DNA of 64,000 bases from a virus. Its lineage: Duplodnaviria > Heunggongvirae > Uroviricota > Caudoviricetes. The translations under genes were made by a program, and so were the position numbers. The stretch lies in the IMG/VR virus record IMGVR_UViG_3300043467_001216; one strand, 5' to 3'. The notes beneath the pieces were generated by a model that saw only the letters and a program-made list of their open reading frames with translations, ran no database searches and had not been told where the DNA came from. Shown here in pieces: positions 47,273-56,154 of the stretch (position 1 is its first letter; the number at the start of each line of letters is the position of its first letter).

Positions 47273-48091
47273 TTATTTCAGTAAATTATAGTATTCTTTA
47301 AATTTCTTTAGTCTATCAGCTAAACCATTAGTTCCACCATTTATTCTTTTGGTTAGTTGTTTTACAACATCGTCACTAATTCCTTTATCACAGATACTCC
47401 AAAGACCGTTAGAGTTAAAGAAATAAGCCGCAGATGCTAATGGGTATTTAGTTGATACCAAATCAGGATTACTCACACAATCTTCACCAATAAACTTAGT
47501 GAAGTTTACATAATTAGATTTACCGGTTAATTGGATATATCCTCTACCACGAAATTTAAAACCTTCCATAGTTAATTCAGAACCATTCCCCATTCTATCA
47601 CCATAAACTCGTGAAGCAATTTTTTCAGGTTTTTTAGCGTATGATTCAGATAGATTACCAGGAAAATATTTACCAAACACTTTCTTTAATCCGTCAGATG
47701 AGTAATTTAAGTTTTCCTCAACTGCTCTAAAACTACCACTTTCGTGAGCACATTGTGATAAGAAGTGAGCCAATCTTAAAGGTGATGTAATGTTGAATTT
47801 TTTAGCAACCTCATCAATTTGATTAATAACTGTTCCGGGAACAACACCAACTAACTTATCAAGTTTGAATGTTGTATTTTTAGGATTAACAACATCTTCC
47901 TTAATCATAGTTCCTAATTTTAATTTATCCCAAGATAATTGTCCGACAATACCATCATCAACTAATCCATTACTTCTTTGCCATTCTTTAACTTTTTTTT
48001 CAGTCCCTGGACCAAAAATACCGTCGGGGTTTAAACCTAACTTCGTTTGTAGTAATTTAACGTCTTCCCCTGTTGAACCAATTTTTAACAT
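47273..48091 (-). CDS. Endolysin: peptidoglycan-binding domain + GH19 catalytic domain
   Basis: DGIFGPGT/DGIVG; FLSQCAHES, ENLNYS, FRGRGYIQLTG, INGGTNG. Confidence 0.93.
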   Translation of the reverse strand: MLKIGSTGEDVKLLQTKLGLNPDGIFGPGTEKKVKEWQRSNGLVDDGIVGQLSWDKLKLGTMIKEDVVNPKNTTFKLDKLVGVVPGTVINQIDEVAKKFNITSPLRLAHFLSQCAHESGSFRAVEENLNYSSDGLKKVFGKYFPGNLSESYAKKPEKIASRVYGDRMGNGSELTMEGFKFRGRGYIQLTGKSNYVNFTKFIGEDCVSNPDLVSTKYPLASAAYFFNSNGLWSICDKGISDDVVKQLTKRINGGTNGLADRLKKFKEYYNLLK

Positions 48092-48163: not shown

Positions 48164-48694
48164 ATGTCTAAATTTGTTATTGATAATCTCCATTCAGAGA
48201 TTGAGTTTAAAGTGAAACATTTAATGATTTCAACCGTTACAGGTCGTTTCACAGAGTTTACCGCAGAAATTACTGCAGAAAAAGAAGATTTTACAGATGC
48301 TCAAATTAGTTTTGAAGCTGACGTAAATTCTATCACAACAAGTGTTGTAGATAGAGACAACCACCTTAAATCTCCTGATTTCTTCGACGCTGAGAGTTAC
48401 CCTAAATTAGCTTTTAAATCAACAAATGTTGTATTGGAAAATAATACATACAACGTAACAGGATTATTGAATATCCACGGTGTTGAGAAAGAAGTTACAT
48501 TGGTTGGTGAATACAATGGTAATGACACTGACTTATATGGTAACAAAAAACACGGGTTTGAATTAACAGGAACAATTAAACGTTCAGAATTTGGACTTAC
48601 ATTCAACGCAACAACCGATAAAGGTGGTTTATTAGTATCCGATGAAGTAAAATTAATTGCAAGTGTGCAATTTATTGAGGTTGTGATGGCGTAA
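48164..48694 (+). CDS. YceI-family lipid/polyisoprenoid-binding protein
   Basis: HSEIEFKVKHLMISTVTGRF, RDNHLKSPDFFD, RSEFGL. Confidence 0.93.
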   Translation: MSKFVIDNLHSEIEFKVKHLMISTVTGRFTEFTAEITAEKEDFTDAQISFEADVNSITTSVVDRDNHLKSPDFFDAESYPKLAFKSTNVVLENNTYNVTGLLNIHGVEKEVTLVGEYNGNDTDLYGNKKHGFELTGTIKRSEFGLTFNATTDKGGLLVSDEVKLIASVQFIEVVMA

Positions 48695-48780
48695 TTTGTT
48701 ATTAGTATCTTTGTTAACCCTCATCTTAATTGATGGGGGTTTTTTGTTTTATAAAATATTTATAAAGTAAATAGTTAATT

Positions 48781-50550
48781 ATGATATCACTAGAAAAAAA
48801 CACACGATACTGTTTTTACACCTCAGTAGTTGTGATGACAATGTTTTTGATAATAAAACTTTTAGTGGTGTTTAATTTTCTACCCCTATGTAATTCAGTG
48901 ATGTGGGCTGAATTTATCTGTTTTGTTTTATTTATCCCTCTTTTTTTCAAAATAATTTATGATTATGTGAAAAAAAATAAAGAATCGGTTAAATTAAACT
49001 TTTATGCTAGAAATTTAAATGAAACTTTAATATCTCAGACACACAACCATTTATTCTATGAGGGAAATGTTAATGAAGGTGCTAAATTATTAACTAAAGA
49101 AGTTACTAATAGTATATGTGCCGACAGATGTTCTATTTGGTTATATAACAAAAAAAATAACGGGATTGTTTGTGAACAATTATACGAGAAAAAAGACGAT
49201 GAATGGTTTCAAGGTGTTGAAATATTTGAGAAGGATTTTAAACCGTATTTCGAAGGGTTAAAAACTAACCCAATCATTATTGCGAATGATGTTGACTTAC
49301 ATCCTGCAACAAGTTGTTTTAAAGAAACGTATTCAGGACCCCTTGGTATTAGAGCAATGTTAGACGTTCCAATTATTTATAAGGGAGAAGTTATTGGTGT
49401 TATTTGTATTGAAAGTTATACCGTTAGAGAATGGCATAAAGTGGAAGTAAATTTCGCTGAAATGTTATCATCATTGTATTCATTCGCATATTCTGTGGAA
49501 GAAGGTAATGAACTTAAAAATGAATTATCTGAGTTCGAACATTTTGTTGATTCATCAGTATTGGTTAGTAAAGCAGATAAAAGAGGTAAAATTACATATG
49601 TGAACAAAAAATTCGAAGAGGTATCAGGATGGTCATTGGAAGAATGTTTGGGTAAAGACCATAGAATTGTTAATTCTAACATTCACGATAAGAAATATTG
49701 GTCTAATATGTATAAAACTGTGAAGTCAGGTAAAATTTGGAATGACTTGGTTATCAATAAAAATAAAGATGGTGAATTATATTGGGTTGATACATATATT
49801 AAAGCCGAATTTGATGTTGATAATGGTAAACTAAAAGGTTATACCTCAATTAGACAAGACGTAACTGAAATCCATAAAAACATTGCGGAAATTAATAAAA
49901 AGAACACGTATCTAGAACACGCCGCGAAGATTCTAAGACACGATATGCACTCAGGGATTAATACATACATCCCAAGAGGTATTAGTTCATTAGAACGAAG
50001 ATTAAAACCTGAAGATATTGAAACATTAAAATTGGAGGCCCCACTTAAAATGTTGAAGGAAGGTTTGAAACATACTCAAAAAGTTTACAAGGGAGTTTAT
50101 GAATTTACCAATTTGGTTAAGACTGATGTTGTTTTAACTAAGGAAACTCATAATCTTAAAGATGTCTTAAACGCTTACCTATCCTCAACAGCTTATTCAA
50201 GTCAAGTGGCGATAGATTGGTTACCAACAATAGAAATTAACGAATCATTATTCTGTACCGCGATTGATAATCTAATCCGTAATGGTTTAAAGTATAACGA
50301 TTCTGACGCTAAAATGGTTGCTATCTTTATGGAAAATGAAGAAAATATTGCAATACAAGATAATGGTAGAGGTATGACACAAGAAGAATTTGAACACTTG
50401 TCATTACCATATAATAGAAAAGACGGTCAAAAAGAATCAGGTACAGGTTTAGGTTTAAATATTTGTATCGCAATCCTACACGAACACGGTTTCACTATTA
50501 AATGTGAAAAAAATGAAGTGGGAACTAAATTAACAATTAAAATAAAATGA
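48781..50550 (+). CDS. Membrane sensor histidine kinase (2TM-GAF-PAS-HisKA-HATPase)
   Basis: GAF (LDVPI..G.VIGVIC), PAS (ITYVN, GELYWV), H-box LRHDM, N-box NLIRNGLKY, DNGRGM, GTGLGL. Confidence 0.93.
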   Translation: MISLEKNTRYCFYTSVVVMTMFLIIKLLVVFNFLPLCNSVMWAEFICFVLFIPLFFKIIYDYVKKNKESVKLNFYARNLNETLISQTHNHLFYEGNVNEGAKLLTKEVTNSICADRCSIWLYNKKNNGIVCEQLYEKKDDEWFQGVEIFEKDFKPYFEGLKTNPIIIANDVDLHPATSCFKETYSGPLGIRAMLDVPIIYKGEVIGVICIESYTVREWHKVEVNFAEMLSSLYSFAYSVEEGNELKNELSEFEHFVDSSVLVSKADKRGKITYVNKKFEEVSGWSLEECLGKDHRIVNSNIHDKKYWSNMYKTVKSGKIWNDLVINKNKDGELYWVDTYIKAEFDVDNGKLKGYTSIRQDVTEIHKNIAEINKKNTYLEHAAKILRHDMHSGINTYIPRGISSLERRLKPEDIETLKLEAPLKMLKEGLKHTQKVYKGVYEFTNLVKTDVVLTKETHNLKDVLNAYLSSTAYSSQVAIDWLPTIEINESLFCTAIDNLIRNGLKYNDSDAKMVAIFMENEENIAIQDNGRGMTQEEFEHLSLPYNRKDGQKESGTGLGLNICIAILHEHGFTIKCEKNEVGTKLTIKIK

Positions 50551-51539
50551 GTAAAAAATTTAAAATACTATCAATAGATGGTGGAGGACTTAGAGGTCTA
50601 ATCCCCCTATTGATATTAAAAGAAGTTGAGAAAATAACCGGAAAGAAAATTTACGAGTTATTTGATTTAATAGTTGGAACGTCAACAGGTGGTATAATCG
50701 CTTGTGGATTAACCGCAAGTAAAGACGGTAAAACTCCGGTATTGTCAATTGACAAATTGATTGAATTATACACCACAAAAGGTAATGTGATTTTCCCATA
50801 TAAAAATAATATCTTCAATAAAATCAATTCGGTATTCAATCCTAAATTTTGTCCTGAAGGATTAGACAATGAGTTGTCAAATTACTTTCAAACATTAAAA
50901 TTGAGTAACACATTAAAACCAATTATTGTAACATCATATGATATTAGAAATAATGAAGTTGTAATGTTTAAAAGTCGTAAATCAAATGAAGTAGGTTATG
51001 ATTGTTTACTGAAAGATGTTTGTAGAGCAACATCAGCGGCACCAACTTATTTACCTTCATATGAAATGAATTATGGTGGTAAGTTAAGAACTTGTATAGA
51101 TGGTGGTGTGTTTGTAAATAACCCCTCATTGGTAGGTATATCGGATGTCGTAAGAAATACTTATGGGTTTGGTGAAATTAATGTTGAGGATATCTCATTA
51201 TTTTCTTTAGGTACAGGTATTTATACAGAAAACTTAGGAGTTAAAGAAACTAAGAGCTGGGGGTTAAAAGATTGGGTTAAACCAATCACCGATGTTATGT
51301 CACAAGCAACCTCAAAAGTTGTTGATTATGAGTGTAACGAGTTCTTAGACAATTATCTACGTGTTCAGGTAACAATAGATGATGAAAGTAAAAGTGATAT
51401 GTCAGATTCAAGAATTGAAACGACAAATTATTTGATTAGTAGAGTAAACACTCAAGTTTTAAAGAACGTTAATAAATTAAACGAAATAAAAGAATTTTTA
51501 AAAAAGTTAGGTAATGATAGAATCAATCTTATTAGTTGA
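50547..51539 (+). CDS. Patatin-like phospholipase
   Basis: DGGGLRG, GTSTGG, SAAPTY, DGGV. Confidence 0.95.
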   Translation: MSKKFKILSIDGGGLRGLIPLLILKEVEKITGKKIYELFDLIVGTSTGGIIACGLTASKDGKTPVLSIDKLIELYTTKGNVIFPYKNNIFNKINSVFNPKFCPEGLDNELSNYFQTLKLSNTLKPIIVTSYDIRNNEVVMFKSRKSNEVGYDCLLKDVCRATSAAPTYLPSYEMNYGGKLRTCIDGGVFVNNPSLVGISDVVRNTYGFGEINVEDISLFSLGTGIYTENLGVKETKSWGLKDWVKPITDVMSQATSKVVDYECNEFLDNYLRVQVTIDDESKSDMSDSRIETTNYLISRVNTQVLKNVNKLNEIKEFLKKLGNDRINLIS

Positions 51540-51951
51540 TGACGAGGATTTATTCCACTTAGTATTTGAGGACGCATGTTCATTATTAGATATTAGTTTA
51601 TCACTAAAATCTGTGAACAGTTCTGATGAAGCCGCAAGGATGTTTAAACAATGGTTTGATTCAGGTGACCATAAAGAAAAACCTGAATGTGTATTTGTGG
51701 ATTTAAATTTAATTGGTTCAGCATTTGATGGGATTGAATTAGTTAGAAAGATAAATTTTGAATACGGTAACCACGTTGTTATTGGAATTATTTCATCATC
51801 AAATGAACCATCAGAACAAGCGAAAGCGGTACAAGCCGGAGCACAGTTTTGGTTAGTTAAATCAGATGAAATTGAACCAAGATTAGAAGAGTTCAGAACA
51901 GATTACCCAAATTTTAAAAATAGAACACAAACATTTAAAGTTTACAAATGA
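51514..51951 (+). CDS. Single-domain response regulator (receiver)
   Basis: ILLVDDE, VFVDLNL, ISSS, GA..WLVK. Confidence 0.9.
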   Translation: MIESILLVDDEDLFHLVFEDACSLLDISLSLKSVNSSDEAARMFKQWFDSGDHKEKPECVFVDLNLIGSAFDGIELVRKINFEYGNHVVIGIISSSNEPSEQAKAVQAGAQFWLVKSDEIEPRLEEFRTDYPNFKNRTQTFKVYK

Positions 51952-52625
51952 TAAAGTTTAGTGCAAATACTAAAAAACAATTATTAGACCTTTACAAGGC
52001 CAAGAATATTGGCCTTGAAGGTAATTTATTGAAAGTAGTTGATTCTGAAGAAGATTCTGAGTTTTCTCAATACATTAAATCCTGTATTGATAAAGATAAA
52101 GAATCAAGAAAAAAACGTTTAGATATAACTAAACAAATTCAAAACAAAAATACCGAACTTGAAAATTTAAATACCGAGAATACCCGAATATTAGAAGAAT
52201 TACAAATAACCTTAGAAAATGTCGAAACATCTAAGAAACAAATTGAATCTCAAAATACCGAACTATTATCTTGGAAAGATGAAAATGAGAGAATTCAATT
52301 AGAACTCCAAGAAGAAATGAAACGAACTGAATCTGCAAGAGAAGAGGCGGAGCACGCTAAAGCAAACGCACTTTCTGATTTAGATTTGTTACAGAAAAAA
52401 ACCCAAACAGAATTAATGGGTAATATTGTTAAAGTAGCCTTAGGTGTTATTATGTTTGTTGCAGTTATTACAACCGCAATGTATGTATTCTCAATTGTGA
52501 TGGGTAAAGAAGTTAACACAATCGGACCAGCTTGGAGTAATATGTTCGGAATCCTATTAACTAACGCATTTAGTATCGTTGGGACAATAATGGGTGTAAA
52601 ATACGCAACTAAAGATAAAGATTAA
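51948..52625 (+). CDS. Coiled-coil protein with two C-terminal TM helices
   Basis: Long heptad region then two hydrophobic helices. Confidence 0.8.
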   Translation: MIKFSANTKKQLLDLYKAKNIGLEGNLLKVVDSEEDSEFSQYIKSCIDKDKESRKKRLDITKQIQNKNTELENLNTENTRILEELQITLENVETSKKQIESQNTELLSWKDENERIQLELQEEMKRTESAREEAEHAKANALSDLDLLQKKTQTELMGNIVKVALGVIMFVAVITTAMYVFSIVMGKEVNTIGPAWSNMFGILLTNAFSIVGTIMGVKYATKDKD

Positions 52626-52931: not shown

Positions 52932-54791
52932 ATGAGTAAAATTATTGGAATTGACTTAGGAACTACGAATTCGTGTGTTGCCGTAATGGAAGGGAATGAA
53001 CCTGTTGTAATCCCTAACAGTGAGGGAAAAAGAACAACACCATCAGTAGTTGGATTTGTTAATGAAGAAAGAAAAGTTGGTGACCCTGCTAAAAGACAAT
53101 CAGTTACTAACCCAACTAATACGGTTTATTCTGTTAAACGTTTTATGGGTTCATCATTTGATGAATGTGTGAATGAAACTACAAAAGTTCCATATTCTGT
53201 AATTAAAGGGAAAAACAATTCCCCAAGAGTAAAAATTGATAATAAAGAATTTTCACCACAAGAAATTTCAGCAACTATCTTACAAAAGATGAAAAAAACT
53301 GCGGAAGATTATTTGGGGTCAACTGTAACTGAAGCGGTTATTACTGTTCCTGCTTACTTTAATGACGCACAAAGACAAGCAACAAAAGAAGCTGGTGAAA
53401 TCGCAGGTTTAACTGTTAGACGTATTATCAACGAACCAACCGCTGCGGCATTGGCTTACGGTTTAGATAAGAAATCAAAAGACGCTGTTGTTGTTGTATT
53501 TGATTGCGGTGGGGGTACGCATGATGTTTCAATCCTTGAATTAGGTGACGGAGTATTTGAAGTAATGTCAACAGATGGGGACACTCACTTAGGTGGTGAT
53601 GACTTCGACCAAACAATTATTGATTACTTAGTAGGAATCTTCAAAGATGAAAATGGTATTGATGTTAGTAAAGACCCAATGGCGTTACAAAGATTAAAAG
53701 AGGCTGCTGAGAAAGCGAAAATTGAGTTATCATCAACCTCATCAACAGAAATTAACTTACCTTACTTAATGCCGGTTGATGGTGTTCCAAAACACTTAGT
53801 AACTTCTTTAAGTAAATCTAAATTCGAACAATTAGTTCAACCATTAGTTGACAGAACTATTAAACCGTGTGAAAGTGCGTTGAAAAGTGCGGGTATTAAA
53901 GTAACCGATATTGATGAAGTTATTTTAGTAGGTGGAACAACAAGAATTCCAGCAATTCAGGAGGCCGTTAAAAAATTCTTTGGTAAAGAACCTTCAAAAG
54001 GTGTTAACCCTGATGAGGTAGTTGCGTTAGGTGCGGCAATCCAAGGTGGTGTATTAGCTGGTGATGTAAAAGACGTGTTATTATTAGATGTTACCCCACT
54101 TTCATTAGGTATCGAAACTATGGGAGGTGTATTCACTAAATTAATTGAATCTAACACAACAATCCCAACTAAAAAATCACAAGTATTCTCTACGGCAGTT
54201 GATAACCAACCAAGTGTTGATATCCACGTATTACAAGGGGAAAGAGCGATGGCTAAGGACAACAAAACTATTGGTAAATTCCAATTGACTGATATTCCAC
54301 CATCACAAAGAGGTGTTCCGCAAATCGAAGTAACTTTTGATATTGACGCTAACGGTATCATTAATGTATCTGCGTTGGATAAAGGAACAAACAAAGTTCA
54401 ATCAATTAAAATTGAAGCGTCTTCAGGATTGTCTAAAGAAGAAATTGAAAGAATGAAATCTGAAGCTGAAGCAAATGCTGAAAACGATAACAAATTACGT
54501 GAGGAGGTTGAATTAATTAATAAAGCTGACAGTGTTGTGTTCCAATCTGAAAAATCAATTAAAGATTTGGAAGATAAAATCTCAGAAACTGATAAAACAG
54601 AATTAACTGAATTGGTTTCAAGTTTAAAAGAATCTGTTGAGAAACGAGAATTAGACGTTTTGGAGTCGAAAATTGAATCAGTCAATACTAAGTTCCAATC
54701 AGTATCTCAAAACTTGTATGATGAGTCAAATGTAACTGATGAGGTGAATGATAGTGATTTTTCTGATGTGGAATTTGACGAAGTGAAATAG
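52932..54791 (+). CDS. dnaK: Hsp70 chaperone DnaK
   Basis: [41 protein letters not shown]. Confidence 0.98.
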
Positions 54792-55875: not shown

Positions 55876-56154
55876 TTATTGAGGGTTTTCTGTTTCATCA
55901 GTGTTTTCAGTATTGGTTGATTTTTCTTTTTGAATTTTACTAATCATCCATCCCGCAACTGCGAATTCGGCGGTAGCCCAAAGTAAAAATTCACCCATAC
56001 TTAATGTCGAATGTTTTTCCAATAAGAAGAAAATCATACCCCATTGTGCGATTACAAATGCGATACCTGACTCAATTCTTTTTTTAGAAAAGTAAGATGT
56101 TCTTGCTGAATACATATTCATTAATTCAGTGAATAACCATTTAATTTTTTTCAT
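55876..56154 (-). CDS. Two-TM protein, holin candidate
   Basis: SKKR then two TM helices and charged tail; TATTTAT on minus strand at 56169-56175. Confidence 0.5.
   Translation of the reverse strand: MKKIKWLFTELMNMYSARTSYFSKKRIESGIAFVIAQWGMIFFLLEKHSTLSMGEFLLWATAEFAVAGWMISKIQKEKSTNTENTDETENPQ

What the first reader, a model, noticed from the sequence alone, without database searches (positions are those of the whole stretch)
48757..52625. Phage-encoded two-component operon with a patatin phospholipase wedged between kinase and receiver
Seen: four overlapping genes behind a TATTTATA motif: a TM-GAF-PAS histidine kinase with intact H/N/G boxes, a patatin with intact GxSxG and DGG, a stand-alone receiver with no DNA-binding domain, and a coiled-coil 2-TM protein. 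The endolysin and YceI genes lie immediately upstream. Known: complete two-component systems are rare in phages, and patatins are membrane-destroying effectors in CBASS (CapV). Inference: a late, post-translational sensory circuit that could time lysis or membrane remodelling according to environment.
Basis: partly seen in the sequence, partly recalled or inferred. Interest (0 to 1): 0.75.

Follow-up and report, generated by a model that had tools for sequence, protein, structure and literature searches.

The report
Phage lysis-linked sensor relay plus lipase
A giant uncultured phage carries its own sensor kinase, phospho-receiver and a new membrane "hairpin" protein next to its cell-wall-cutting enzyme, probably to time host bursting. 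The membrane-cutting lipase gene between them is an optional add-on found only in this small branch of phages.

Summary
Four intact, overlapping genes lie at 48781-52625: a TM-GAF-PAS histidine kinase, a CapV-type patatin, a stand-alone receiver and a coiled-coil 2-TM "hairpin" protein. They follow a terminator and a conserved TATTTATA promoter-like motif, on a T4-like jumbo-phage genome of about 300 kb.

In 33 related viral loci and 4 mis-binned MAG contigs the invariant unit is kinase-receiver-hairpin. Patatin sits between kinase and receiver only in one sub-clade (one gain, then loss in the nearest relatives). Patatin orthologues also occur in phages without the relay, and relay-bearing records have no patatin, so patatin is not the obligate output.

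The hairpin is the likely output. The receiver stop overlaps its start in 23 of 26 loci, and other phages fuse GAF or PAS sensors directly to the same hairpin. The relay lies within about 1 kb of the only stand-alone endolysin found in 4 of 5 viral records (32-64% complete), with GH19 and GH24 lysins interchanged. The lysis-timing role is inferred, not shown.

Patatin is probably a membrane-degrading lysis accessory or a cyclic-nucleotide-gated effector; sister phages pair it with a PycC-like cyclase or a GH108 lysin.

This scan found the relay before on other DNA. The patatin insertion is new to it.

The parts
47273..48091 (-). Endolysin (PG_binding_1 + GH19), with no TM or signal sequence. 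It is the only GH19/GH24 lysin detected in the 126-kb record.
   Evidence: Pfam and PHROG phrog_181 5.5e-64. No hydrophobic segment. Single GH19 match in G000.
48164..48694 (+). YceI-like lipid/polyisoprenoid-binding protein without a signal peptide. It neighbours the kinase in two syntenic groups but is a separate transcription unit here.
   Evidence: PF04264 9.5e-45 covering residues 4-170. N-terminus read. YceI-kinase adjacency in L014, L028, L031 and L032.
48716..48741 (+). Intrinsic-terminator-like hairpin plus T-run that closes the YceI unit.
   Evidence: An equivalent hairpin precedes the kinase in many relatives.
48757..48764 (+). TATTTATA promoter-like motif, 17 nt before the kinase ATG.
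   Evidence: Conserved as ATATTTAT[AT] in about 19 of 26 loci. Genome-wide it lies 10-40 nt before ORF starts, including terminase and portal.
48781..50550 (+). Sensor histidine kinase: 2 TM, GAF (102-234), PAS (260-363), divergent DHp (probable phospho-acceptor H387), HATPase_c (490-588).
   Evidence: The kinase core is invariant in 26 homologues; the sensor part is variable.
50547..51539 (+). CapV-type patatin phospholipase (S46/D185 dyad, GGGxRG oxyanion loop), cytoplasmic. It is a lineage-specific insertion.
   Evidence: Pfam 3.6e-21. PADLOC PDLC00758 1.3e-71. NCBIfam CBASS_lipase 192.6 bits against a cut-off of 200. Distribution and tree.
51514..51951 (+). Stand-alone receiver (D9, D10, D63, S94-96, K116) with a conserved 28-residue C-terminal extension and no output domain.
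   Evidence: mean column identity 79% over 26 sequences.
51948..52625 (+). "Hairpin" protein: a small N-terminal domain, a long helix 37-185 running into TM1, a short loop, an invariant TM2 (GILLTNAFSIVGTIMGVKY) and a charged tail. It is the probable output of the relay.
   Evidence: Virus-only family. GAF- and PAS-hairpin fusions.
55876..56154 (-). 92-residue protein with hydrophobic helices and a highly charged C-tail. It is a classical holin candidate; its homologue directly follows the hairpin gene in L030.
   Evidence: Inference only.

Best explanation
The locus is a late-type operon of an uncultured T4-like jumbo phage of about 300 kb. It combines two separable modules.

Module 1 is a phage-specific three-gene phosphorelay: a sensor histidine kinase, a stand-alone receiver and a membrane hairpin protein.
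- The kinase reads a cytoplasmic or membrane cue through its GAF and PAS domains and autophosphorylates, probably on H387.
- It passes the phosphoryl group to D63 of the receiver.
- The phosphorylated receiver acts by protein-protein contact on the cytoplasmic coiled-coil part of the hairpin.
- The hairpin's two-helix membrane anchor then changes membrane permeability, or holin activity, and so sets when the signal-less GH19 endolysin reaches the wall.

Module 2 is a cytoplasmic CapV-type patatin lipase. It was inserted once between kinase and receiver in the ancestor of this sub-clade and lost again in the closest relatives. It is co-expressed with the relay and most likely helps destroy membrane lipid at lysis, as proposed for phage WO. 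It is an accessory, not the obligate output.

Shown here: gene integrity, operon layout, invariance of the triad, the gain and loss of patatin, the sensor-hairpin fusions and the endolysin adjacency.

Inferred: phosphotransfer, receiver-hairpin contact, any effect on lysis timing, and what activates the lipase.
For: The DNA is phage: major head, portal and terminase lie on the same record, and the exact hairpin protein occurs on contigs up to 310 kb.

The triad is invariant:
- All 33 IMG/VR loci (32 contigs) have kinase then receiver then hairpin wherever the locus is not cut off by a contig end, in at least 6 syntenic contexts.
- The 4 MAG contigs, from 4 different phyla, also carry it.
- The kinase core and the receiver phospho-site residues are invariant.
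- The receiver stop overlaps the hairpin start by 1 or 4 nt in 23 of 26 loci (coordinates).

The hairpin is the output: a profile of the hairpin alone finds only 112 clusters among 1.84 billion proteins. These include GAF-hairpin, PAS-hairpin and PAS-PAS-hairpin fusions. Two of these fusions lie a few small genes upstream of GH19 or glucosaminidase lysins, with no kinase or receiver nearby.

The link to lysis:
- A T4-type lysozyme sits directly upstream of the triad, or a GH19 lysin directly downstream, on one shared backbone. This is non-orthologous replacement with adjacency kept.
- In 4 of 5 whole viral records (32-64% complete) the only stand-alone GH19/GH24 lysin detected lies within about 1 kb of the triad.

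The promoter-like motif is shared with terminase and portal.

Patatin is an accessory:
- It is present in only 4 rows, all inside one clade with 99% support that also holds 2 patatin-free rows.
- Its divergence between the window and L015 (65% identity) matches that of the flanking genes (66-68%).
- Catalytic motifs are invariant in 11 phage orthologues.
- Orthologues sit next to a GH108 lysin (L060) and after T4-lysozyme-c6 (L006).
- The best hit among cultured phages is the phage WO patatin, for which a patatin-based lytic cassette has been proposed (PMC9203015).
Against: - No step has been tested at the bench.
- In one record (G007) the GH19 lysin is about 40 kb from the triad, and several contexts (L014/L031, L030, L036, L040, L046-L048) show no recognised lysin within 6-8 kb.
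- The hairpin has no similarity to any known holin or antiholin, and its near-invariant TM2 is unlike fast-evolving holins.
- Classical small holin candidates exist nearby (55876-56154), so the hairpin may regulate rather than form the lesion.
- Most patatin contexts (L007, L054, L056, L059, L061) have no lysis neighbours.
- Sister phages pair the patatin with a PycC-like cyclase, which points to cyclic-nucleotide gating rather than simple lysis help.
- The viral records searched are 32-64% complete.
Confidence: 0.5

Rival explanations
1. Patatin is a true output of the two-component system: the phosphorylated receiver binds and activates the lipase, which destroys the membrane at the chosen time. 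The hairpin is a co-effector.
For: - The operon is tight: the kinase stop overlaps the patatin start by 4 nt, and the patatin end overlaps the receiver start by 26 nt.
- The insertion has been kept at the same site through about 35% protein divergence in two sub-lineages.
- The catalytic residues are intact.
- A cytoplasmic lipase needs a switch, and no cyclase or CD-NTase was found in the 126-kb record.
Against: - Patatin is absent from about 29 of 33 orthologous operons, and the two closest patatin-free relatives are nested among the carriers.
- Receiver sequences show no patatin-specific changes: they are 93-94% identical between carriers and non-carriers.
- None of the 59 longer relatives of this patatin is fused to a receiver domain.
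- Orthologous patatins occur in phage records with no hairpin at all, including one that is 94% complete.
Confidence: 0.15
2. Patatin is a cyclic-nucleotide-gated, CapV/Pycsar-style effector that landed in the operon by chance. It would be used against competing phages, for superinfection exclusion, or to respond to host CBASS/Pycsar signals. It would act independently of the relay.
For: - It matches CBASS lipase models over their full length: PADLOC 239.6 bits and NCBIfam 192.6 bits.
- Solved CapV structures are among the PDB hits.
- Orthologues in L052/L053 lie 2 nt after a class III cyclase gene that hits PADLOC PycC at 9.8e-12.
- One relative is fused to a CD-NTase (P0292).
Against: - The score falls below the NCBIfam equivalog cut-off of 200.
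- No CD-NTase or class III cyclase was found in the record, which is only 42% complete.
- Three separate contexts place the patatin beside lysis genes.
- An abortive-infection effector is hard to reconcile with a lytic jumbo phage's own late operon.
Confidence: 0.22
3. The relay is not about lysis. The receiver or the hairpin targets a conserved host process (envelope stress, motility, energy metabolism or cell division) to reprogramme the infected cell, and proximity to lysins is inherited synteny.
For: - The receiver is extremely conserved (79% mean column identity while the kinases fall to 47%), which suggests a conserved and possibly host partner.
- TM2 of the hairpin is invariant.
- Several contexts have no nearby lysin, and in G007 the lysin is about 40 kb away.
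Against: - Adjacency is kept while unrelated lysin families replace each other.
- One-component GAF/PAS-hairpin genes also lie in lysin clusters of other phages.
- In 4 of 5 records (32-64% complete) the only stand-alone lysin detected is within about 1 kb.
Confidence: 0.12
4. The locus is cellular DNA, or a prophage moron serving the bacterial host.
For: Four homologous contigs are binned in bacterial MAGs. One record carrying only the patatin is flagged as a provirus (G001).
Against: - The four MAGs belong to four different phyla, and their contigs carry other phage genes.
- The window's record encodes head, portal and terminase proteins.
- Atlas clusters of the hairpin are 96-100% viral.
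- Only 4 hits were found in the genomes of 185,579 species.
Confidence: 0.01

Closest known systems
T4 lysis inhibition (holin T with antiholins RI and RIII)
   Same: It is a phage-encoded circuit that senses a condition during infection and acts on a membrane lysis protein by protein-protein contact, to delay or trigger release of a cytoplasmic endolysin. The host phage is also T4-like, judged by its capsid.
   Different: No holin T homologue was found in the record. The signal path here is a His-Asp phosphorelay with cytoplasmic GAF and PAS sensors, not a periplasmic antiholin. The comparison is by analogy only.
LytSR two-component system controlling the holin/antiholin-like LrgAB/CidAB of Firmicutes (own knowledge)
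   Same: It is a two-component system whose kinase contains a GAF domain and whose target is a holin-like membrane protein.
   Different: LytR is a LytTR DNA-binding regulator that acts on transcription in a cell. Here the receiver has no DNA-binding domain, the system is viral, and the hairpin is unrelated to LrgA/CidA.
CapV, the cGAMP-activated patatin effector of CBASS
   Same: The patatin matches CapV-type models end to end, has the Ser-Asp dyad and is cytoplasmic.
   Different: It scores below the equivalog cut-off. No CD-NTase lies next to it or anywhere in the 126-kb record. It is encoded by a phage inside a kinase/receiver operon.
Putative patatin-based lytic cassette of Wolbachia phage WO (PMC9203015)
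   Same: It is a phage patatin beside a holin-like coiled-coil membrane protein, and relatives carry a GH108 lysin in the equivalent place. Here the patatin orthologue in L060 lies directly before a GH108 lysin. The WO patatin is the best hit among cultured phages (36% identity).
   Different: The WO role is itself only a proposal. WO lacks a peptidoglycan endolysin, whereas this phage has one. WO has no kinase or receiver.
Single-domain response regulators (CheY, Spo0F, DivK; own knowledge)
   Same: It is a stand-alone receiver with a complete phospho-acceptor pocket, acting by protein-protein contact.
   Different: It has its own conserved C-terminal extension and is translationally coupled to a dedicated membrane partner. 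The closest solved sequence match is weak (3ilh, 3.6e-6).
Pycsar (PycC cyclase plus effector)
   Same: In sister phages the orthologous patatin follows a class III cyclase that hits PycC models.
   Different: Known Pycsar effectors are TM or TIR proteins, not patatins. The window phage shows no cyclase in the sequence available.

Membership tests
Classical two-component system (HisKA-type kinase plus receiver) | Kinase catalytic ATP-binding domain with N, G1 and G2 boxes | tested here: met
   HATPase_c 1.7e-13. DNLIRNGLKYND, DNGRG and GTGLGL are invariant in 26 homologues.
Classical two-component system (HisKA-type kinase plus receiver) | DHp domain with phospho-acceptor His recognised as HisKA | tested here: inconclusive
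   There is no Pfam HisKA hit at E<=0.01. An invariant RHDMHSG motif (H387 followed by an acidic residue) sits at the expected distance from the CA domain. A PHROG kinase family (phrog_10912) aligns from residue 383, and NCBIfam kinase models align only from about residue 432 onward.
Classical two-component system (HisKA-type kinase plus receiver) | Receiver with an acidic pocket, phospho-Asp, Thr/Ser and Lys | tested here: met
   D9, D10, D63, S94-96 and K116 are invariant in 26 sequences. PF00072 2.6e-9.
Classical two-component system (HisKA-type kinase plus receiver) | Phosphotransfer from kinase to receiver | not testable with these tools
   Needs a biochemical assay.
CBASS (CD-NTase plus CapV effector) | Effector reaches the curated CapV equivalog score | tested here: not met
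   NF041079 scores 192.6 bits against a cut-off of 200. The PADLOC phospholipase effector model matches strongly.
CBASS (CD-NTase plus CapV effector) | Adjacent CD-NTase (SMODS) gene | tested here: not met
   The neighbours are a kinase and a receiver. There is no PF18144 match in the 126-kb record, which is 42% complete.
CBASS (CD-NTase plus CapV effector) | Activation of the lipase by a cyclic oligonucleotide | not testable with these tools
   Needs a lipase assay with ligands.
Detocs and other known defence systems with kinase/receiver parts | Kinase, receiver or fourth protein match defence-system models | tested here: not met
   PADLOC gives nothing meaningful for the kinase, receiver or hairpin.
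T4-type holin/antiholin lysis-inhibition system | Holin T homologue present | tested here: not met
   No PF11031 match in the record. The record is incomplete.
Holins in general | Small membrane protein with 1-4 TM helices and a charged C-tail, encoded beside the endolysin | tested here: inconclusive
   The hairpin has 2 TM helices and a charged tail, and lies beside lysins in many phages. It is also 225 residues long with a 150-residue cytoplasmic part and an invariant TM2. It matches no holin family.
Holins in general | Forms a membrane lesion that releases endolysin | not testable with these tools
   Needs expression and lysis assays.
Phage kinase-receiver-hairpin triad (family defined by this scan, not in the literature searched) | Gene order kinase, receiver, hairpin, with an invariant hairpin TM2 motif | tested here: met
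   The window differs only by the inserted patatin.

The most novel reading that the evidence does not exclude
The phage runs a phosphorylation-based lysis clock with two arms. The phosphorylated receiver gates a new holin-like hairpin and, in this lineage, also switches on a CapV-type lipase. A CBASS-style suicide effector would thus have been rewired from cyclic-nucleotide control to His-Asp control and put to use for the phage's own exit.
Probability: 0.12. Interest if true: 0.85.

Novelty: new variant of a known kind. Interest (0 to 1): 0.62.

Why it matters
Lysis timing sets phage fitness. The known timing controls are holin clocks, and antiholins that sense superinfection. A virus-only His-Asp relay would add a new kind of control: a phage reading the state of its host before bursting it. 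The relay has swappable GAF and PAS sensors, ends in a dedicated membrane protein and is present in thousands of uncultured jumbo-phage sequence clusters.

The patatin result matters in two ways. Second, it shows that CapV-type lipases, best known as anti-phage suicide effectors, circulate widely in phage genomes: beside lysins, beside PycC-like cyclases and, here, inside a signalling operon. All the parts can be expressed and tested in standard laboratory hosts.

Tried and rejected
- Complex prediction of the receiver with the cytoplasmic part of the hairpin (residues 1-150), both given as alignments. It returned no verdict (median score 0.28, mark 0.32) and counts neither for nor against binding.
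- Foldseek of the hairpin model against the PDB: nothing below E=3. A profile search of solved structures gave only generic coiled coils.
- The Atlas feature search returned only the hairpin's own viral clusters.
- Megablast of 10 kb against cultured phages found no match. tblastn of the kinase against cultured phages hit only PAS domains of chemoreceptors.
- Searches of the record for SMODS, a class III cyclase and holin T were all empty. The record is only 42% complete.
- The kinase-receiver spacers of the patatin-free relatives L028 and L032 show no visible patatin remnant.
- Solved-structure searches for the two unknown neighbours c26 and c6 found nothing.
- Literature searches for phage-encoded two-component systems or histidine kinases returned no paper with those phrases and nothing relevant among broader hits. 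The "Receiver domain" of the N4 pinholin gp63 (PMC12642591) is an unrelated use of the term.
- TATTTATA as a simple over-represented word was rejected: 26 found against 19.7 expected. Its positional bias and conservation were accepted instead.

Full report
**What is there.** The region holds four + strand ORFs that overlap each other. The kinase (48781-50550) ends in ATGA with the patatin start. The patatin (50547-51539) overlaps the receiver start by 26 nt. The receiver (51514-51951) overlaps the fourth gene (51948-52625) by 4 nt.

Pfam gives GAF, PAS and HATPase_c for the kinase, Patatin for the second protein, Response_reg for the third, and nothing for the fourth. In the kinase: two N-terminal TM helices, RHDMHS, DNLIRNGLKYND, DNGRG and GTGLGL. 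In the patatin: DGGGLRG, GTSTG and DGG. In the receiver: DD, D63, SSS and K116, with no output domain. The fourth protein has a long coiled coil and two C-terminal TM helices.

The GH19 endolysin lies just upstream on the opposite strand, followed by a YceI-like gene. A terminator-like hairpin (48716-48741) closes the YceI unit. TATTTATA follows at 48757, 17 nt before the kinase ATG.

**The DNA is phage.** The window lies on a 126-kb IMG/VR virus record that CheckV rates 42% complete. Its other half encodes a T4-type major head protein, a portal and a large terminase. The nearest capsids are those of uncultured huge phages and Flavobacterium phage immuto, at 34-39% identity. The exact fourth protein is found on contigs up to 310 kb, so the genome is a jumbo phage of roughly 300 kb. 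The "cellular DNA" refutation does not apply.

**The promoter motif.** As a bare word, TATTTATA is not enriched in this AT-rich window: 26 hits against 19.7 expected. However, ATATTTAT[AT] is kept 15-30 nt upstream of the kinase in about 19 of 26 divergent relatives, usually right after a terminator hairpin. In the 126-kb record, 42 of 65 occurrences on the coding strand lie 10-40 nt before an ORF start, including terminase and portal. Control words reach 0-37%. This supports a phage promoter shared with structural genes. "Late" remains an inference.

**Core and accessory genes.** A scan of IMG/VR with the kinase returned 33 loci at 47-97% identity. A scan with the patatin returned 8. Mapping all neighbours shows that kinase, receiver and the fourth protein are always together and in that order, in at least six different genomic contexts. 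Patatin sits between kinase and receiver only in four rows: the window, its 97% twin (L005/L013), L015 and L058.

On a tree of kinase core plus receiver plus fourth protein, these four rows fall in one clade of six with 99% support. That clade also contains the patatin-free L028 and L032. The simplest history is one insertion followed by loss. Patatin identity between the window and L015 (65%) matches that of the flanking genes (66-68%).

The two modules are independent. Three patatin-bearing viral records, one of them 94% complete, have no hairpin gene. Five triad-bearing records have no patatin.

**What the triad is.** The kinase core is nearly invariant while its sensor part is swapped: TM-GAF-PAS, an extra PAS, or soluble PAS only. 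The receiver is the most conserved gene, with 79% mean column identity and all phospho-site residues invariant. Its stop overlaps the start of the fourth gene by 1 or 4 nt in 23 of 26 loci (coordinates).

The fourth protein has a conserved N-terminal region of about 75 residues, a coiled coil of variable length and an almost invariant second TM helix, GILLTNAFSIVGTIMGVKY, followed by a charged tail. AlphaFold2 (pLDDT 82.9) models one long helix (37-185) that runs straight into TM1, a short loop, and TM2. Flanking charges suggest that both ends are cytoplasmic; this is inference.

The family is large but viral:
- It has 7,716 clusters at 90% identity.
- Its Atlas clusters are 96-100% viruses.
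- Only four hits were found in the genomes of 185,579 species. All four are on MAG contigs from four different phyla, and all carry the triad.

**The hairpin is the output.** A profile of the hairpin part alone, run against 1.84 billion representatives, finds just 112 clusters. Among them are proteins in which GAF, PAS or PAS-PAS domains are fused directly to the hairpin. These are the same sensor types as in the kinase. Such one-component versions argue that the hairpin is what the signal finally acts on.

An earlier report of this scan (e1-5339819) gave this lead. It was re-derived here from an independent search.

**The link to lysis.**
- On one shared backbone (c7 ... c10-c17), some phages have T4-type lysozyme, triad, c6, and others have triad followed by a GH19 lysin. 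Unrelated lysins have replaced each other while staying adjacent.
- L017 has the triad followed directly by a GH19 lysin. The window, L028 and L032 have the lysin divergently upstream.
- In L062 and L063 the GAF-hairpin and PAS-PAS-hairpin genes lie a few small genes before GH19 or glucosaminidase lysins, with no kinase or receiver nearby.
- A census of five viral records (32-64% complete) shows that in four the only stand-alone GH19/GH24 lysin detected lies within about 1 kb of the triad. The chance per record is roughly 5%. These four records represent three independent arrangements.
- In the fifth record, G007, the lysin is about 40 kb away. Several other contexts show no recognised lysin nearby.

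The link is therefore strong but not universal. The window's endolysin has no signal or TM segment, so it needs a membrane lesion to reach the wall. A classical small holin candidate also lies at 55876-56154. Its homologue directly follows the hairpin gene in L030. The hairpin may therefore be a holin or a holin regulator.

**The patatin.** It matches CBASS phospholipase effector models end to end: PADLOC 239.6 bits, and NCBIfam CBASS_lipase 192.6 bits, just under the cut-off of 200. It also resembles solved CapV structures and plant patatin. It has no signal peptide.

Orthologues at 54-77% identity occur on many large viral contigs, with catalytic motifs invariant. Their contexts fall into three kinds:
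- Beside lysis genes: T4-lysozyme-c6-patatin in L006, and patatin followed by a GH108 lysin in L060, on a backbone that shares FKBP and metallophosphoesterase genes with the window region.
- Directly after a class III cyclase that hits Pycsar PycC models: L052/L053.
- Among unrelated genes.

No cyclase or CD-NTase is present in the available 126 kb. No close longer relative is fused to a receiver. The best hit among cultured phages is the phage WO patatin, for which a patatin-based lytic cassette has been proposed (PMC9203015).

I read the window's patatin as an accessory membrane lipase riding in the lysis-linked operon. Whether it is gated by a nucleotide, by the receiver or only by timing of expression is open.

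**Comparison with what is known.** The parts belong to known families (kinase, receiver, patatin). The hairpin belongs to none. Functionally the closest analogues are T4 lysis inhibition and the LytSR-LrgAB/CidAB system, but the tested membership features fail:
- No holin T was found.
- The receiver has no DNA-binding domain.
- The kinase, receiver and hairpin hit no defence-system models.

Searches of the held literature found no description of a phage-encoded two-component system of this kind. This scan has met the same triad repeatedly on other genomes, with the same reading. The patatin insertion had no look-alike among its notes.

**Verdict.** The conserved machine is kinase, receiver and hairpin, probably a lysis-timing relay (confidence about 0.5 for the whole mechanism). 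The patatin is a real, active-looking but dispensable insertion. Nothing has been tested experimentally.

Noticed in passing
L052:5298-6960 and L053:5298-6960 (same lineage as L008, L009, L012): A 233-residue class III nucleotide cyclase (PF00211; PADLOC PycC 9.8e-12) ends 2 nt before a CapV-type patatin on phage contigs of up to 125 kb. This looks like a phage-borne cyclase-plus-lipase pair, a Pycsar/CBASS hybrid. A Band_7 (SPFH) gene lies nearby.
   Followed up: partly
window 48164-48694: The YceI-like protein starts directly with the YceI domain and has no signal peptide, so it is probably cytoplasmic. It precedes the kinase in two syntenic groups (the window/L028/L032 group and L014/L031).
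   Followed up: partly
window 52932-54791; L001-L002 (G000:C1:30431-32482): The phage encodes a full-length DnaK/Hsp70 (PF00012, 6e-256) right after the operon, and a ClpB-like ATPase (phrog_4871) elsewhere. FKBP-type isomerase genes are also conserved nearby. The phage therefore carries its own chaperone set.
   Followed up: no
L015:10130-13432 and L058:8369-10585: In the other patatin-carrying lineage the dnaK gene is split into two pieces. In L015 a 362-residue ORF lies between them, possibly an intron or a homing-endonuclease insertion.
   Followed up: no
whole 126-kb record (G000), window orientation: TATTTAT[AT] lies 10-40 nt upstream of 42 ORF starts, including terminase, portal and a 492-residue head-region gene. 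It is a candidate phage promoter and is the reverse complement of the T4 late consensus TATAAATA.
   Followed up: partly
L056:3869-6951: Two patatin paralogues lie 1.2 kb apart on one phage contig, next to a pyruvate-phosphate-dikinase-like gene.
   Followed up: no
L034:5698-8941: One relative has two kinases (436 and 437 residues, one of them membrane-bound) upstream of a single receiver and hairpin.
   Followed up: no
L020:8740-9348 (cluster c6) and L018:5418-5879 (cluster c3): c3 (T4-type lysozyme) and c6 (phrog_3000) match the N- and C-terminal halves of one PHROG endolysin family (phrog_33083). In about ten loci the triad is inserted exactly between these two halves of the lysin unit.
   Followed up: partly
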